Positions 24,394 to 44,461 of a stretch of 64,000 nt of DNA are shown piece by piece. Made by a program: the position numbers and the translations under genes. The stretch comes from Escherichia coli (GTDB lineage Bacteria > Pseudomonadota > Gammaproteobacteria > Enterobacterales > Enterobacteriaceae). Position 1 is the stretch's first letter. Each line of letters opens with the position of its first letter. The notes under the pieces were generated by a model. It was not told where the DNA came from, made no database searches, and worked only from the letters and a program-made list of their open reading frames with translations. The DNA is taken from NCBI RefSeq assembly GCF_046105845.1, contig NZ_CP151004.1. One strand, written 5' to 3'.

Positions 24394-25296
24394 CTAACCA
24401 CCCGTTTTCAGGCAATATTCGGTCGTAGCGTGGCGTTCGATCCAGCGGATCATTTTACCCGCGATGTCGATACCGGTGGTTTTTTCTATTCCTTCCAGCC
24501 CCGGCGACGCATTCACCTCCATCACCAATGGCCCGCGATTAGCACGCAGAATATCCACACCAGCAACGTCCAGCGCCATCGTTCGCGCGGCTTTTATCGC
24601 GATTTCACGCTCCTGTGGTGTGATACTGGCGACGCTTGCCGCGCCGCCACGATGCAAATTGGAACGAAAATCGCCCTCTTTCGCCCGCCGTTCAATCGCC
24701 GCGACCACTTCATCCCCAACAACCAGGCAGCGGATATCGCACCCTTGCGCCTCTTTGATATATTCCTGCACCAGAATATGCGCGTTCAGACCGCGAAAGG
24801 CGTCAATCACGCTTTCCGCCGCCTGACGCGTCTCCGCCAGCACGACACCAATTCCCTGCGTACCTTCAACCAGCTTAACCACCAGCGGCGCACCACCGAC
24901 CATGTCGATTAAATCGCTGGTATCATCCGGCGAATGCGCAATGCCCGTGACAGGCAGGTCGATGCCCTGACGCGCCAGCAGTTGCATGGAACGCAATTTG
25001 TCACGCGCCCGGGCAATGGCGACCGACTCATTGAGCGGATAGCTCCCCAGCATCTCGAACTGGCGCAGTGCCGCCGTCCCATAAAAGGTAATGGCGGTGC
25101 CAATACGCGGGATCACAGCGTCAAAATGGGGTAACTTGCGGCCTTTGTAGTGAATAGAAGACGCCGCAGGATTTATGTTCATGTAGCAAGAAAGCGGATC
25201 AAGAATTTCAACCAGGTGACCGCGCTGTATAGCGGCTTCACGCAGCCGCTTACACGAATAGAGCGTTCCATCCCGGGACAATATGGCAATTTTCAC
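24394..25296 (-). CDS. rimK: Ribosomal protein S6 glutamate ligase (ATP-grasp)
   Basis: 300-aa ATP-grasp ORF; recognised RimK sequence. Confidence 0.92.
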
Positions 25297-25356
25297 CCTG
25301 CACCTCTCTGTCAGACCTGGTCAAAAGCCCGCGTATCATACATCGGCGTGGCGGTT

Positions 25357-26079
25357 TTAGCGCGTCGCCCAACCCTGTTTGTGCAAATAATCCAGTATAA
25401 ATGGGCGGCTTTCTTTAATGATTGTTCGGCGGATATGATCGCTCCAGGTATCCCGGCGATTATTGCTGCCACGTGTGAGGTAATATTCCGCCAGTTGTTC
25501 GTCATACTGCGCCAGTGCGTCTTTATCCAGCGGTTGATAGTTGTTTTCATGCACCAAAATGGAGGCCGGTAAACGCGGCTTAAGATCCGGATTATCCGCA
25601 GGCCAGCCAAGGCACAGCCCAAACAGCGGCAGAACATGCTGCGGTAATTTCAGCAGTTCCGTCACCGCTTCAATATTATTGCGCAGGCCGCCGATATATA
25701 CCCCGCCCAATCCCAGCGATTCCGCTGCGGTTAACGCATTCTGCGCCATCATTGCTGTATCAACGACACCGAGCAACAGTTGCTCCGCCAGGCCAAGTTG
25801 TGCATCCGGACAGATCTGTAAATGGCGGTTAAAGTCGGCACAGAACACCCAGAACTCCGCCGCTTGCGCTACGTGTTTTTGCCCGCCGGTCAGCGTCACC
25901 AGTTCATCACGTAACGCTTTGTCGGTAATGCGAATAATGCTACTGCACTGCAAAAAACTGGAACTGGACGTCGCACGGGCGCTGTTAATAATCGCCTCAC
26001 GCTGCGCTTCGGAAATGGGTTCATCAGTGAAATGGCGAATGGAGCGATGGCCACAAATAAGTTCAATGGTTGGCGTCAT
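25357..26079 (-). CDS. nfsA: Oxygen-insensitive NADPH nitroreductase
   Basis: 240-aa nitroreductase family ORF. Confidence 0.92.
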   Translation of the reverse strand: MTPTIELICGHRSIRHFTDEPISEAQREAIINSARATSSSSFLQCSSIIRITDKALRDELVTLTGGQKHVAQAAEFWVFCADFNRHLQICPDAQLGLAEQLLLGVVDTAMMAQNALTAAESLGLGGVYIGGLRNNIEAVTELLKLPQHVLPLFGLCLGWPADNPDLKPRLPASILVHENNYQPLDKDALAQYDEQLAEYYLTRGSNNRRDTWSDHIRRTIIKESRPFILDYLHKQGWATR

Positions 26080-26350
26080 TATCTTTTTCTCTTTCTGAAC
26101 GTGAATATTGCGGTGGACGGTTCATCAGCTGTGGGGCAAGACGTTTTGCCACCTGAAGAATAACCACCACCGCAGCGGGAAGCATGAGCAAAACACCGAG
26201 AAAAATCATCAGAATCTGCACTTCTGGCCGAGAAAATGGCTCAGGCAGCGACAGGGAGCCGCTTACCGACAGCAGCGCCACCGCCAGCAACATCATTCCG
26301 ATAAATTCCAGTATCAACACGCTTGTAGGCAATTTACCGATCGCGCGCAT
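26063..26350 (-). CDS. ybjC: Small membrane protein YbjC
   Basis: 95 aa, overlaps nfsA start; first gene of the ybjC-nfsA-rimK-ybjN transcription unit. Confidence 0.8.
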   Translation of the reverse strand: MRAIGKLPTSVLILEFIGMMLLAVALLSVSGSLSLPEPFSRPEVQILMIFLGVLLMLPAAVVVILQVAKRLAPQLMNRPPQYSRSEREKDNDANH

Positions 26351-26509
26351 ACGCTTCCCTCTGCAAAGTGAGCCTTCAGTCTAAAACTTTTCACTGTATT
26401 GTGTTTAACAGTTATAGCTTTTAGCAATTAATGCAACAGGTTAAACCTACTTTCAGCGAATACATTTTAGCGTGATCATTACAGGCATAAATCTATGAGG
26501 AGAGAAATA

Positions 26510-26767
26510 ATGCAAACCGTTATTTTTGGTCGTCCGGGTTGCCCTTACTGTGTGCGTGCAAAAGATCTGGCTGAGAAATTGAGCAATGAACGCGATAATT
26601 TTCAGTATCAGTATGTTGATATTCGTGCGGAAGGGATCACTAAAGAAGATCTACAACAAAAGGCAGGTAAACCCGTAGAAACCGTGCCGCAGATTTTTGT
26701 CGATCAGCAACATATCGGCGGCTATACCGATTTTGCTGCATGGGTGAAAGAGAATCTGGACGCCTGA
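26510..26767 (+). CDS. grxA: Glutaredoxin 1
   Basis: CPYC active site; start trimmed to MQTVIFGRPGCPYC. Confidence 0.93.
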   Translation: MQTVIFGRPGCPYCVRAKDLAEKLSNERDNFQYQYVDIRAEGITKEDLQQKAGKPVETVPQIFVDQQHIGGYTDFAAWVKENLDA

Positions 26768-26777
26768 TCGTCTGACA

Positions 26778-26806
26778 AGCCCTCGCGTTGAGGGCTTTAT
26801 TGATTT
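26778..26806. terminator. Bidirectional terminator between grxA and ybjM
   Basis: gccctcgcgttgagggc hairpin followed by T-rich tract. Confidence 0.75.
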
Positions 26807-27174
26807 TTTCTGTGCTGTGGTTTAAACAAACTACTGATAAATAAGAAACACAGTGCCCCCAGCGCACACCAGAACACCGCACTCAATAACCATGCCAGCT
26901 CTTGCCAGAATGAGCGCGTCGGTGAAAAAAACAGCCGCATAATAAGCATTGAACAGGGTGCCGCCAGCATTGCGCCAAACAGAGGTTTCAGGACTTCTCT
27001 ACGCTGTGAAAAGAAGCTGGCAACTGCTCCAGGAAGAATGAAAAACAGCAAGCCGATTTCAGGATGCCCGGCAGCCCGAAAAGCGCCTTTCATGTGCGTC
27101 GCCAGAAAAAGGCACACCACAATGAAGAGGACAAAACAGCAGATTGCCCCCGCCCAACGTTGTTTATGTTTCAC
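26797..27174 (-). CDS. ybjM: Inner-membrane protein YbjM
   Basis: 125-aa hydrophobic ORF. Confidence 0.8.
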   Translation of the reverse strand: MKHKQRWAGAICCFVLFIVVCLFLATHMKGAFRAAGHPEIGLLFFILPGAVASFFSQRREVLKPLFGAMLAAPCSMLIMRLFFSPTRSFWQELAWLLSAVFWCALGALCFLFISSLFKPQHRKNQ

Positions 27175-27443
27175 TCGTTCCTCCTGACACTGCGTCTATC
27201 GAACACATTTTTCGCCAGTGTGGCGTTCAGTAAGATAAAGCCGCTTCGCATTCCATGCTAATATAGGCCAACGCAATTCATATAGCCGTTGATACCTAAT
27301 GTGATTACACTAGTAAAATATATTGTTACTTTACTATCGTTTAGGTGCGCTGAATGAATCTGCGCCCTGAATTCTGGTAAAAAACATTATCGTAAATTAC
27401 CATTTCTTTCAACAGCTTACTAGTAAACAAGAAGTTAGCCTCC

Positions 27444-29129
27444 GTGAATATAAACGTCGCCGAATTGTTAAATGGGAATTACATTCTGTTATTATTTGTG
27501 GTCCTCGCGCTTGGGCTATGTCTCGGAAAGTTACGACTTGGTTCGATCCAACTGGGTAATTCCATTGGCGTTTTAGTCGTATCGCTGTTATTAGGCCAAC
27601 AACATTTCAGCATTAACACCGACGCGCTTAATCTTGGCTTTATGCTGTTTATTTTCTGCGTCGGGGTCGAAGCCGGACCGAACTTTTTTTCCATTTTTTT
27701 TCGCGATGGGAAAAATTATCTAATGTTAGCACTGGTGATGGTTGGCAGTGCGCTGGTCATCGCCTTAGGGTTAGGTAAGCTGTTTGGCTGGGATATTGGC
27801 CTGACGGCCGGTATGTTAGCAGGATCTATGACGTCAACACCGGTTCTGGTCGGTGCTGGCGATACACTGCGTCATTCCGGCATGGAAAGCAGGCAGCTCT
27901 CACTGGCACTGGATAATCTGAGCCTCGGGTATGCCTTAACCTATTTAATCGGTCTGGTGAGTTTGATTGTTGGTGCGCGTTACTTGCCGAAATTGCAGCA
28001 TCAGGACTTACAGACCAGCGCCCAGCAAATCGCCCGCGAACGTGGCCTGGACACAGATGCCAACCGTAAGGTTTATTTGCCGGTGATCCGCGCCTACCGC
28101 GTCGGCCCGGAGCTGGTAGCCTGGACCGACGGCAAAAATCTGCGTGAACTGGGTATTTATCGACAAACCGGCTGCTACATTGAACGTATTCGACGTAACG
28201 GGATTCTGGCAAATCCAGACGGTGATGCCGTGCTACAAATGGGCGATGAAATAGCGTTGGTAGGCTACCCCGACGCCCACGCCCGACTCGATCCCAGCTT
28301 CCGTAACGGCAAAGAAGTTTTCGATCGTGACCTTCTCGACATGCGTATCGTCACTGAAGAAGTGGTCGTTAAAAACCATAACGCTGTTGGCAAACGCCTG
28401 GCACAACTGAAGTTGACCGATCACGGTTGCTTCCTTAACCGCGTCATTCGTAGCCAGATTGAGATGCCGATAGATGACAACGTCGTGCTTAACAAAGGTG
28501 ACGTTTTACAAGTCAGCGGCGATGCCCGTCGCGTAAAAACCATCGCCGATCGCATCGGCTTTATCTCGATTCACAGCCAGGTCACTGACCTGCTGGCATT
28601 CTGCGCCTTCTTTGTTATTGGGCTGATGATCGGGATGATCACCTTCCAGTTCAGCACATTCAGTTTCGGCATGGGGAACGCTGCCGGGTTGTTATTCGCC
28701 GGAATTATGCTGGGCTTTATGCGCGCTAACCACCCGACCTTCGGTTACATTCCGCAGGGTGCATTAAGCATGGTGAAAGAGTTCGGCTTAATGGTGTTTA
28801 TGGCAGGCGTTGGTCTAAGCGCCGGTAGCGGTATTAATAACGGCCTGGGCGCGATTGGCGGTCAGATGTTGATTGCCGGATTGATTGTCAGTCTTGTGCC
28901 AGTGGTTATCTGTTTCTTGTTCGGTGCTTATGTATTGCGAATGAACCGCGCACTGTTGTTCGGCGCAATGATGGGCGCACGCACCTGCGCGCCGGCAATG
29001 GAGATCATCAGTGATACAGCTCGCAGTAATATCCCGGCGCTGGGCTATGCGGGCACCTACGCAATCGCCAACGTCCTGCTGACGCTGGCAGGGACAATCA
29101 TCGTCATGGTATGGCCAGGATTAGGATAA
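27444..29129 (+). CDS. ybjL: Putative transporter YbjL (AAE family, two TrkA-C domains)
   Basis: 561-aa membrane protein with central soluble region. Confidence 0.88.
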
Positions 29130-41935: not shown

Positions 41936-44284
41936 CTACTCTTTTACTAATTTTCCACTTTTATCCCAGGCGGAGAACGGCATGGGTTTCTGGTACAGAT
42001 ACCCCTGAGCCTGAACACATCCTAATTTGATTAATTCGCGCGCAACGTCTTCGCTCTCTACGCCTTCCGCAATCACCGGGATCCGGTTATAGCGTGCCAG
42101 ATCGAAAATAATGCGCACAATTTTTCCCGCAGTACCGAAAATATCGCCGGTAAATTGTGAGTCCACCTTTATGCTATCTGGATTAATTTCATAAAAACGT
42201 TTCAGGTTTGACAAACCGGTGCCAAAGTCATCAATCGATATCCGTACCCCTTGTTTACGCAGTTGTTCAATATTGAGATAAAAATGTTCATTAATTCGCT
42301 CGATCACGGTTTCAGTGATCTCAACACAGAGGCTGTTCGCCTTCAGGCCATTTTCTTCCATGATGGTGGTAAAACGCTCATGAAAGTGTGGTTCGTTTAA
42401 CTCCCAGGGCGAAACATTAATATGCAGTAAGAAATCATCCTTCAGCGACGCACGCTGACTAAAATGTCTGAATTCACCCATTGCCGTTTTAATAATCTGA
42501 TAACCCAGCTCATTGATAAACCCGATATCTTCAGCAATGGTAATGAACTTTAGCGGTGAAATGATCCCCCGCTCCGCAGACACCCAACGGCACAACGCCT
42601 CCGCGCCCAGAATGGTGCGGGTGTTAATATCAACGATCGGTTGATAGACGAGGAATAGTTCGCCAATTTCCATTGCATGGCGAATATTACGCGCAATCCA
42701 GATATTCTCTTCTATTTCGTTGAGTTTCGCGTCATCACAGAAAATAAACTCGGAGAACATATGGTCACGGATACTGGAAATCGCCAGTTTCAGTTTTTCT
42801 GCGTAACTCCAGGCGTTTTCCCCCTGCAAAGGTTCACAAATGGCAGACTTATGGATGCGCAGATTGCGGTAGCCAAAGCTGCTGTCAAAATCGTTTATCA
42901 TCGCTATTTTACGGGTAAATGTCTGTACATTTTCCCGGCACAGAAGTAAATAGAGATCGGCATTGAATGTCACGATATCGCAGCATTGCGCATATTTCTC
43001 GGCAATTCGCTGACACAATTTCCTGACGATTTTATTGCGTTCATCAACACCAAACACCGCTTCCACGGCTTCCAGACCACACAGTTTGATGATCCCCACA
43101 GCCAGATACTGATTATTGTTAGACTCAATAATCGCCATATTTTTAATAAAACCGCTTTCCTGATCGTAAGAGATCAGTGAGAGCAATTTATTTGACCGTT
43201 CAATTTCGGCATCTTTCATTTCCGCGATCGAATTTTTGATGCTGATAATCTCTTTCGCATCGCCTTCGCGAATTTTCAGAGCCTCGATCTGATCCGTTGA
43301 GTCGGGCAAAAACGCCAGCGTATTAACCAGCTCGGTCATTTCAGAAAATTGCCGACGGAACACACGAGTGGTCATTAAATAAACCACCAGCAATACGATA
43401 ATAATGAAAGCAAACGGCAGATAAAAAAGTTTATCTGATGCGTTCAATAAATTACCACCAGGATAATAAAAATAGATTTCGAATAATGCGTTGTTTGGCA
43501 CCGCTGAAGTTTTTTCGATATATTCAGTATCGACAGAATCAATAATATTATAATTACCTTCGCTATTATAAATAATTAGTTTTTCACGAGCGAGTTGATT
43601 CTTGGCAATGATCTCATGGCCTTGTTTCAAAAATAGAACTTCATCATTAGCGCTGATTTGATCAAGATACTCGTTCAGATATCGCCAGTTTAAATCGACA
43701 TGTATTTTATCCACCGCTAACAAATCGTGATCTTTGCCGTTGATGCGTAGCGTAAAAGAGATACATTTTTTACCCGGACGATCAAAGCAATTGTAGGCCG
43801 GATTCCAGCTGTTGTTAGAGTCATCTGAAGCCACCGACCATGGTCGTTTCGATGGATTAAAATCGGCAAAAATAACCCGCCCTGACTCGTCGACAAGCGG
43901 TCCATTTACTTCTTCCTGATGATAAACAACGATTTTATCATTCGCCCTCCGCGAAAAGAGATAATATTTATTATCATCAAGTACCAGTCCCACCGAGTCT
44001 AAAAATGGCATCATTTCCATTTTAAGGATCACAGCGCGTTGAATCTCCTCTGTATTTTTTAATAAATACAGTGAGTCCTTTAATGTCAGGGCCGAACGTT
44101 CAATATCTTTAAAGAAATAGCCAACGTTTTTCTGAATAAGTTCAAAGCGGCTATCGGCACGTTTTACCGCGCGTTCCAATACCAGTTGATAGTTAATGAT
44201 GAAAAAAAGGCCAATAAATGACAGTGCTGCCAATAAAAATAAAATTATCAGCCTTATCTTTATCTTTTCGTATAAACTCAGCAT
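41936..44284 (-). CDS. pdeI: c-di-GMP phosphodiesterase PdeI (YliE), membrane EAL protein
   Basis: EAL motif (GAEALCRW); start chosen at MLSLYEK to give about 782 aa (ORF track extends to 44362); AT-rich. Confidence 0.85.
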
Positions 44285-44461
44285 GTTAATACATTTAACA
44301 AAATAACTGTCTGAACGCTGTGCCGCTGCAAAAACAGTCCCTTGCTGCGGCTTTTTAACCAAATTACCCGATTCTACAAAATCAGCAGAAAGTTACAACA
44401 CTTGCTTAGGGCAATAATTTCCTGTGAGGTGATTACCCTTTCAAGCAATATTCAAACGTAA

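What the first reader, a model, noticed from the sequence alone, without database searches (positions are those of the whole stretch)
26351..26509. Divergent ybjC-nfsA / grxA control region
This is a 159-bp spacer between divergent starts. grxA is a known OxyR target and ybjC-nfsA a known SoxS/MarA/Rob target, so overlapping oxidative-stress operators are expected here. I can see AT-rich tracts and an ATAG...CAAT arrangement near 26415-26435 but cannot assign sites confidently.
Basis: established knowledge. Interest (0 to 1): 0.2.

Follow-up and report, generated by a model that had tools for sequence, protein, structure and literature searches.

The report
Known E. coli ybjC–grxA control region
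This 159-bp stretch is the well-studied E. coli switch between the glutaredoxin gene grxA and the ybjC-nfsA nitroreductase operon, where a peroxide-sensor (OxyR) site and a MarA/SoxS/Rob site physically overlap; it is ordinary and already described.

Summary
ybjC starts at 26350 (- strand) and grxA at 26510 (+ strand), leaving a 159-bp spacer. Its GC content is 36%, against 51% for the window. It is 100% identical to E. coli K-12 890754-890912.

Both expected operators are present and can be placed.
- **OxyR site:** the 37-bp OxyR consensus matches once in 64 kb, at 26414-26450, with 3 of 20 specified positions mismatched. The next best match has 6, and shuffles gave none. An OxyR-like site in the same place and orientation occurs in about 28 enterobacterial grxA loci.
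- **Marbox:** a marbox at 26437→26418 (- strand) has a core, GCATTAATTGCTAAA, identical to the published MarA ChIP-seq and gel-shift site for grxA<>ybjC. It is the top hit in the window with a leave-one-out matrix (18 bits). It lies entirely inside the OxyR site.

The literature reports that peroxide raises grxA and lowers ybjC, and that SoxS/MarA activate ybjC-nfsA.

My promoter assignments are inferred from conservation, not measured: grxA -10 GATCAT at 26474-26479, and ybjC -10 TAGACT at 26383→26378.

Verdict: interpretation supported, already known, low interest.

The parts
26063..26350 (-). ybjC coding sequence (95 aa, DUF1418), first gene of ybjC-nfsA-rimK-ybjN
   Evidence: ORF list; RefSeq annotation under 100% matches; K-12 annotation
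26351..26509 (.). 159-bp divergent intergenic control region
   Evidence: identical to K-12 890754-890912; GC 0.358
26510..26767 (+). grxA coding sequence (85 aa plus stop), glutaredoxin 1
26414..26450 (.). OxyR operator: ATAGCTTTTAGCAATTAATGCAACAGGTTAAACCTAC, four ATAG-like elements 11 bp apart
   Evidence: Only match in 64 kb with up to 3 mismatches, 0 in shuffles. Next best has 6 mismatches. Rank 1 tandem pair with an independent P. aeruginosa half-site matrix. Same position and orientation in about 28 orthologous loci.
26418..26437 (-). Marbox M1 (MarA/SoxS/Rob site), 20-mer GTTGCATTAATTGCTAAAAG, core 26434..26420; lies entirely inside the OxyR operator
   Evidence: Core identical to the MarA ChIP-seq site 'gcattaattgctaaa' for grxA<>ybjC, with +++ in-vitro binding. 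Leave-one-out matrix gives 18.15 bits, rank 1 of 127,972 positions.
26402..26421 (-). Second marbox-like element M2, core GCTATAACTGTTAAA (26418..26404), overlapping the predicted ybjC -35; function unproven
   Evidence: 13.6 bits, rank 5 in the window. Listed as a predicted marbox for ybjC in PLoS Genet 2025 Table S2. Conserved in 6 Escherichia species.
26402..26407 (-). Predicted ybjC promoter -35 (TAAACA, 4 of 6)
   Evidence: Sits 18 bp upstream of TAGACT; inferred
26378..26383 (-). Predicted ybjC promoter -10 (TAGACT); predicted start near 26371
   Evidence: Positions T, A, -, A, -, T are invariant in 6 Escherichia species while positions 3 and 5 vary. It aligns in position with TATACT of other genera. 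It fits the 'class I SoxS promoter' statement. Inferred, not measured.
26450..26455 (+). Predicted grxA promoter -35 (CTTTCA), abutting the OxyR operator
   Evidence: C/TTTC conserved directly after the operator in the orthologues; inferred
26474..26479 (+). Predicted grxA promoter -10 (GATCAT); predicted start near 26485-26487
   Evidence: A nATnAT hexamer begins exactly 24 nt after the operator's last base in the enterobacterial orthologues; inferred
26497..26502 (+). grxA Shine-Dalgarno sequence GAGGAG
   Evidence: Read from the sequence; invariant in Escherichia
26356..26361 (-). ybjC Shine-Dalgarno sequence GAGGGA
   Evidence: Read from the sequence; invariant in Escherichia

Best explanation
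This is the known back-to-back divergent control region of E. coli grxA and ybjC-nfsA-rimK-ybjN.

A single 37-bp OxyR operator (26414-26450) sits between the two core promoters. Its right edge abuts the grxA -35. Oxidised OxyR bound there therefore activates grxA transcription: -10 GATCAT at 26474-26479, with a predicted start near 26486, which puts the site centre at about -54.

The ybjC promoter fires leftwards. I place it at -35 TAAACA 26407..26402 and -10 TAGACT 26383..26378, with a predicted start near 26371. It is activated by a MarA/SoxS/Rob monomer bound to a marbox (26437..26418) centred at about -56, upstream of the -35. That is a class I type arrangement.

The marbox lies completely inside the OxyR operator and is built mostly on positions the OxyR consensus leaves free. 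OxyR occupancy and MarA/SoxS/Rob occupancy are therefore expected to be mutually exclusive. This would explain why peroxide raises grxA but lowers ybjC.

Shown here or in the literature:
- the positions and statistics of both sites;
- MarA binding to this sequence;
- the sign of each regulatory effect.

Inferred:
- the exact -10, -35 and start sites;
- competition between the two proteins as the cause of ybjC down-regulation.
For: Locus identity.

OxyR site: unique consensus match. Rank 1 with an independent half-site matrix. The 37-mer is conserved in position and orientation in about 28 loci from Escherichia to Erwinia/Tatumella, with consensus ATAGcctg.a..aATC.a.gcAAcAGGca.aaCCT.C. The four-ATAG description of the E. 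coli motif and grxA as an OxyR target are. grxA is listed as OxyR-activated.

Marbox: exact identity to the MarA ChIP-seq and gel-shift site. Leave-one-out rank 1. ybjC is also a SoxS ChIP-exo target. SoxS is listed as activator of ybjC-nfsA-rimK-ybjN. Paterson et al. mapped the start and the SoxS site and classed the promoter as class I.

Opposite regulation under H2O2: grxA P/P and ybjC N/N in single-cell reporters. OxyR is listed as repressor of ybjC-nfsA-rimK-ybjN.

Promoter elements: a conserved TAnAnT on the ybjC side and a conserved nATnAT at fixed distance on the grxA side. Coordinates verified.
Against: No start site was measured here, and the primary papers (Paterson 2002, Tao 1997, Zheng 2001) could not be read.

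A published start-site list places a start at about 26402 on the - strand, downstream of TATAAC. That is not the start I predict.

Other -10-like hexamers exist: TACAGT 19 bp after M1, and CACAAT.

M1 points towards ybjC (forward), whereas typical class I marboxes are reversed. A weaker reverse reading does exist, GCAATTAATGCAACA at 11 bits.

The simple promoter scan found no sigma-70 match of at least 9 of 12 in the spacer. This is expected for activator-dependent promoters but gives no positive support.

Competition between OxyR and MarA/SoxS has not been demonstrated.
Confidence: 0.85

Rival explanations
1. The functional activator site for ybjC is, or includes, the second element M2 (26421..26402). 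M2 overlaps the -35 in forward orientation, the class II arrangement, 18 bp upstream of TAGACT. M1 would then be auxiliary, or would serve another promoter.
For: M2 scores 13.6 bits, rank 5 in the window. It is 18 bp from TAGACT. Its core is kept at 10-15 bits in all six Escherichia species, whereas M1 is not. It is listed as a predicted ybjC marbox.
Against: The ChIP-seq motif call and the strong in-vitro binding were assigned to M1, not M2. The promoter is reported as class I. Part of M2's conservation is explained by its 5-bp overlap with the OxyR half-site. Most other genera have no equivalent element.
Confidence: 0.25
2. OxyR and MarA/SoxS/Rob act independently at this locus. The fall in ybjC expression under H2O2 is indirect, for example through growth arrest or altered SoxS/MarA/Rob levels, and not through competition for overlapping DNA.
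For: No competition experiment was found. The OxyR operator does not cover the predicted ybjC -35 or -10; there is a 6-bp gap. Growth-rate effects on reporters under H2O2 are large.
Against: The 20-bp marbox is completely inside the 37-bp operator. An OxyR tetramer contacting four successive major grooves should therefore exclude a MarA monomer. ybjC remains down-regulated after growth-rate correction. OxyR is catalogued as a repressor of the operon.
Confidence: 0.2
3. The motif matches are chance similarities in an AT-rich spacer and carry no function.
For: The degenerate marbox consensus with up to 3 mismatches is uninformative: 128 matches against 140 expected. The spacer is AT-rich.
Against: The OxyR match is unique, with 0 expected. 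The marbox is rank 1 with a leave-one-out matrix and identical to an experimentally bound site. The OxyR site is conserved across genera.
Confidence: 0.01

Closest known systems
E. coli K-12 grxA-ybjC intergenic region (b0849/b0850; RegulonDB/EcoCyc entries for OxyR on grxA and SoxS/MarA/Rob on ybjC-nfsA-rimK-ybjN)
   Same: The sequence is 100% identical over all 159 bp. Genes and orientation are the same. The marbox core is the one reported by ChIP-seq.
   Different: Nothing in the spacer differs. The flanking genes of this strain differ from K-12 by 1.3-2.1%.
OxyR operators of the peroxide regulon (katG, ahpC, oxyR-oxyS, dps, trxC); four ATAG elements (Toledano et al. 1994 motif, from my own knowledge; described)
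   Same: Four ATAG-like elements at 11-bp spacing, dyad half-sites, and a site abutting the -35 of the activated promoter.
   Different: 3 of 20 specified positions deviate (CAAT, ACAG, CTAC). The operator also contains a complete marbox and faces a second, divergent promoter that is down-regulated.
Class I marbox promoters of the mar/sox/rob regulon (e.g. marRAB, and the forward-oriented upstream sites of zwf and map; the latter from my own knowledge of Martin et al. 1999)
   Same: A 20-bp asymmetric marbox upstream of the -35. It is bound by MarA and is a SoxS target.
   Different: The best reading of M1 is forward relative to ybjC, unlike typical reversed class I sites. A second marbox-like element sits in class II position.
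oxyR-oxyS divergent region (from my own knowledge)
   Same: One OxyR site between divergent promoters, with opposite effects on the two transcripts.
   Different: There OxyR autorepresses its own gene. Here the down-regulated partner is an operon that depends on a different activator family, whose site is embedded in the operator.

Membership tests
OxyR operator | 37-bp motif ATAGnTnnnAnCTAT-N7-ATAGnTnnnAnCTAT, i.e. four ATAG-like elements on successive helical turns | tested here: met
   17 of 20 specified positions at 26414-26450. It is the only such match in 64 kb, the next best has 6 mismatches, and shuffles gave 0. It is the rank 1 tandem pair with an independent half-site matrix.
OxyR operator | Located just upstream of, and abutting, the -35 of the activated promoter | tested here: inconclusive
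   The operator ends at 26450. The predicted -35 is at 26450-26455 and the predicted -10 at 26474-26479, the latter conserved at fixed distance in the orthologues. The start site was not measured and the primary paper was not readable.
OxyR operator | Conserved at orthologous loci | tested here: met
   The best OxyR-like match is always in + orientation, 59-95 bp from the grxA ATG, in 24 loci with a close divergent neighbour. The column consensus keeps ATAG, ATC, AAcAGG and CCT.C.
OxyR operator | Bound by OxyR protein and needed for H2O2 induction | not testable with these tools
   Literature only. grxA is an OxyR-activated gene. It is among the promoters the authors selected either for OxyR ChIP binding or for RNA-seq response; the text read does not say which criterion applied to grxA. 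It is induced in reporters.
Marbox (MarA/SoxS/Rob site) | Match to the asymmetric marbox motif (GCAC-like element plus a YAAA element about 7 bp further along) | tested here: met
   GCATTAATTGCTAAA scores 18.15 bits with a matrix built from the 32 other ChIP-seq sites, rank 1 of 127,972. The plain consensus search does not discriminate.
Marbox (MarA/SoxS/Rob site) | Bound by MarA/SoxS/Rob | not testable with these tools
   Literature. The identical 15-mer is the MEME site under the MarA ChIP-seq peak at grxA<>ybjC, and the fragment bound 0.3 uM MarA. ybjC is also a SoxS ChIP-exo target.
Marbox (MarA/SoxS/Rob site) | Class-appropriate position and orientation relative to the start site (class I: reversed, -56 to -85; class II: forward, -36 to -55) | tested here: inconclusive
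   With the predicted start near 26371, M1 is centred at about -56.5 but points forward. A weaker reverse reading is centred at about -59.5. M2 is forward at about -40.5. The literature calls the promoter class I. The start site was not verified.
Divergent (back-to-back) promoter pair | Two genes with opposite orientation whose starts flank one shared non-coding region | tested here: met
   The nfsA(ybjC)<>grxA arrangement is kept in about 29 loci of Enterobacterales.

The most novel reading that the evidence does not exclude
The high-affinity marbox M1 may be a recent overlay specific to the E. coli lineage, written onto the unconstrained (N) positions of an ancient OxyR operator. E. albertii, E. 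whittamii and two other Escherichia species keep the OxyR-specified bases. They differ at the free positions, which drops the marbox from 18 bits to 4-10 bits. More distant genera have no marbox at that place. If so, E. coli has evolved a mutually exclusive peroxide versus superoxide/xenobiotic switch on one 37-bp element. The locus would then be a compact natural example of regulatory-site overprinting.
Probability: 0.35. Interest if true: 0.3.

Novelty: already known. Interest (0 to 1): 0.12.

Why it matters
It matters little as a discovery, because the locus is a textbook part of the E. coli oxidative-stress network and is catalogued in RegulonDB/EcoCyc. The practical value is a base-accurate map for this window. 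It gives the OxyR operator, the embedded marbox, a second marbox-like element, and conservation-supported -10 hexamers for both promoters. The map also states explicitly that the marbox is nested inside the OxyR site. That nesting offers a simple structural reason for the opposite responses of grxA and ybjC-nfsA to peroxide. nfsA expression level is relevant to nitrofuran activation and resistance.

Tried and rejected
**Degenerate marbox consensus (up to 3 mismatches):** 128 matches against 140 expected, so it is uninformative. I replaced it with a leave-one-out matrix built from published ChIP-seq sites.

**Simple sigma-70 scan:** no promoter of at least 9 of 12 in the spacer. Promoter elements were therefore assigned from conservation.

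**Primary papers not held in the library:** Paterson 2002, by DOI and by PMC134757; Zheng 2001, PMC95351 and PMC95352; and the SdsN paper, PMC5001591. The experimentally mapped start sites and footprints could therefore not be checked.

**Literature searches that gave nothing site-level:**
- The search for Seo 2015 ChIP-exo found only citing papers.
- The supplement of the MarA ChIP-seq paper held nothing on ybjC.
- The Salmonella MarA/SoxS/Rob/RamA paper does not mention the locus.
- The CpxR paper shows CpxR acting on the marA/soxS promoters, not on this spacer.

**Rfam scan of 25000-28000:** nothing relevant.

**Spacer versus K-12:** 0 differences in 159 bp, against 1.3-2.1% in neighbouring genes. 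This is suggestive but not significant on its own; about 2.7 differences would be expected. Two other intergenic stretches nearby are also identical.

**Other high-scoring motif hits in the window:** the OxyR-like pair at 43115 and the marbox-like pair at 12099-12117 lie inside long ORFs. I did not pursue them.

Full report
**Identity and observation**

The window is E. coli chromosome. The 2-kb stretch around the finding matches 5419 of 5426 complete E. coli genomes. It is 100% identical to strains SCU-102 and PCN033, and RefSeq annotates nfsA, ybjC, grxA and ybjM under the match.

The ybjC start codon is at 26350 on the - strand and the grxA start codon at 26510 on the + strand. The spacer is therefore 26351-26509, 159 bp. 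K-12 has the same gap at 890754-890912. The window spacer is identical to K-12 base for base, while neighbouring genes differ by 1.3-2.1%.

Across complete genomes the spacer is at least 99% identical in 5300 of 5415 records. Its GC content is 0.358, against 0.508 for the window. An in-frame ATG at 26495 gives a 90-aa ORF. However, the annotated 85-aa start at 26510 is the one preceded by GAGGAG (26497-26502).

**OxyR operator**

The classical motif is ATAGnTnnnAnCTAT-N7-ATAGnTnnnAnCTAT. This is my own knowledge of Toledano et al. 1994; the 'four regularly spaced ATAG elements' description is confirmed.

- The motif matches once in the 64-kb window with up to 3 mismatches, at 26414-26450: ATAGCTTTTAGCAATTAATGCAACAGGTTAAACCTAC. 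None was found in 100 shuffles.
- The next-best 37-mers in the window have 6 mismatches. The analytic expectation for up to 3 mismatches is 0.004 per window and 0.27 per genome.
- The four elements ATAG, CAAT, ACAG and CTAC start at 26414, 26425, 26436 and 26447.
- A half-site matrix built from P. aeruginosa ChIP-chip motifs (sequences) ranks the tandem pair at 26414-26450 first in the window. The margin is narrow: 15.6 against 15.1 bits.

**Conservation of the operator**

One scan of species-representative genomes with GrxA returned 68 loci. In about 29 of them nfsA lies divergently upstream of grxA, with or without ybjC.

In the 24 loci with a short spacer, the best OxyR-like match is always in the same orientation, 59-95 bp from the grxA ATG. 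Anchoring on it gives the column consensus ATAGcctg.a..aATC.a.gcAAcAGGca.aaCCT.C. This is followed by TTTC and, beginning exactly 24 nt after the site's last base, a nATnAT hexamer. That hexamer is GATCAT in E. coli and CATGAT, CATCAT or CAATAT elsewhere.

I therefore assign the grxA -10 to 26474-26479 and the -35 to 26450-26455 (CTTTCA, 18-bp spacer). The start is predicted near 26485-26487, which puts the operator centre at about -54. These promoter elements are inferred, not measured.

**Marbox**

The degenerate consensus is uninformative. The MarA ChIP-seq study of Sharma et al. 2017 lists 'gcattaattgctaaa' as the site under the grxA<>ybjC peak. It reports binding at 0.3 uM MarA in vitro, and notes that ybjC is also a SoxS ChIP-exo target. 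That 15-mer is present exactly at 26434..26420 on the - strand.

A matrix built from the other 32 sites scores it 18.15 bits, rank 1 of 127,972 positions in the window. The 20-bp marbox M1 (26437..26418) lies wholly inside the OxyR operator. Its two recognition elements fall largely on the operator's unspecified positions and on the N7 linker.

A second element, M2 (core GCTATAACTGTTAAA, 26418..26404), ranks fifth at 13.6 bits. It is listed as a predicted ybjC marbox in a 2025 screen. A weaker reverse reading of M1 also exists (GCAATTAATGCAACA, 11 bits).

**ybjC promoter**

Several -10-like hexamers exist on the - strand. I favour TAGACT (26383..26378) with -35 TAAACA (26407..26402, 18-bp spacer), for three reasons:

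- In six Escherichia species, hexamer positions 1, 2, 4 and 6 are invariant while positions 3 and 5 vary: TAGACT, TAAACT, TAAAAT.
- It corresponds in position to a conserved TATACT in Kluyvera, Leclercia, Silvania and Pluralibacter.
- It places M1 upstream of the -35, centred at about -56.5. This agrees with a review's statement that Paterson et al. mapped the start and SoxS site and classed the promoter as class I.

Three points remain unresolved:

- M1's best reading is forward, unlike typical class I sites.
- M2 sits in a class II position, 18 bp before TAGACT.
- A published start-site list gives a start at U00096.2 890084. I map this to about 26402, downstream of TATAAC.

**Direction of regulation**

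- grxA is catalogued as OxyR-activated, and ybjC-nfsA-rimK-ybjN as OxyR-repressed and SoxS-activated.
- Single-cell reporters show grxA up and ybjC down under H2O2, both at the early peak and at steady state (context).
- NfsA is described as regulated by MarA, SoxS and OxyR.

The nested geometry makes competition between an OxyR tetramer and a MarA/SoxS/Rob monomer the simplest mechanism for the opposite outputs. This is an inference; no competition experiment was found.

**Comparison and verdict**

The region is the known E. coli K-12 control region, identical in sequence. Both operators behave as members of their families on the sequence tests I could run. Binding itself rests on the literature.

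Novelty: already known. Interest is low.

The only mildly new angle concerns M1. The strong version is present in E. coli and one close Escherichia lineage. It is degraded in E. albertii, E. whittamii and two other Escherichia species through changes at OxyR-free positions, and it is absent at that place in other genera. This suggests a lineage-specific overprint on an ancient OxyR site. It needs Salmonella, Shigella and E. fergusonii data, plus experiments.

Noticed in passing
L002:2326-2500 (Escherichia albertii), equivalent to window 26414-26428: E. albertii carries a 16-bp tandem duplication of the left OxyR half-site (ATAGCTTTAATCAATC | ATAGTTTTAGCCAATC). This makes its spacer 175 bp instead of 159 bp and moves the ybjC promoter 16 bp further from the grxA-proximal operator.
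   Followed up: partly
window 26420-26434 versus L003, L004, L005 and L002: The 18-bit marbox M1 is kept only in the window and in L067 (Escherichia sp. MOD1-EC7003). In four other Escherichia species the same columns score 4-10 bits. Their substitutions fall mostly on positions the OxyR consensus leaves free.
   Followed up: partly
L007, L008, L017, L024, L027-L030, L034 (Pluralibacter, Enterobacter, Leclercia, Erwinia, Silvania): ybjC is absent and nfsA itself starts 165-196 bp from grxA. The OxyR-like 37-mer and a TATACT -10 at a fixed distance are still retained. ybjC is therefore dispensable for the divergent architecture.
   Followed up: partly
L009, L010, L012, L019, L024, L028-L030, L034: the 15 bp immediately left of the OxyR-like site: A conserved palindrome-like block, GTTTGGCCAAAT / ATTGGCCAAT, sits beside the operator on the nfsA side in Kluyvera, Leclercia and Silvania. 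It scores poorly as a canonical marbox, because the spacing is off by one. It might be a variant marbox or a site for another factor.
   Followed up: no
L006-L012, L014, L017, L019, L024, L028-L030, L034: grxA 5' leader, about 30-45 nt after the OxyR-like site: Non-Escherichia genera share a conserved leader motif, CATTCGCCGnCAGGC, just after the predicted -10. It is missing from the shorter Escherichia leader. Its function is unknown.
   Followed up: no
window ~26402 (- strand): A published E. coli start-site list (U00096.2 890084+, quoted in PLoS Genet 2025 Table S2) maps here, 8-9 nt downstream of TATAAC (26416..26411). This start lies between M2 and the predicted ybjC -10, so a second, probably basal, ybjC promoter may exist.
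   Followed up: partly
window 43115-43151 and 12099-12117: There is an OxyR-like tandem pair (15.1 bits with the weak half-site matrix) at 43115. There is a palindromic pair of marbox-like 15-mers (13.8 bits each strand) at 12099-12117. Both lie inside long ORFs (41936-44362 and 10506-12308, - strand) and are probably chance matches.
   Followed up: partly
window 26474-26477: The predicted grxA -10 (GATCAT) contains a GATC Dam methylation site. It is conserved in five of the six Escherichia sequences. No link to regulation was examined.
   Followed up: no
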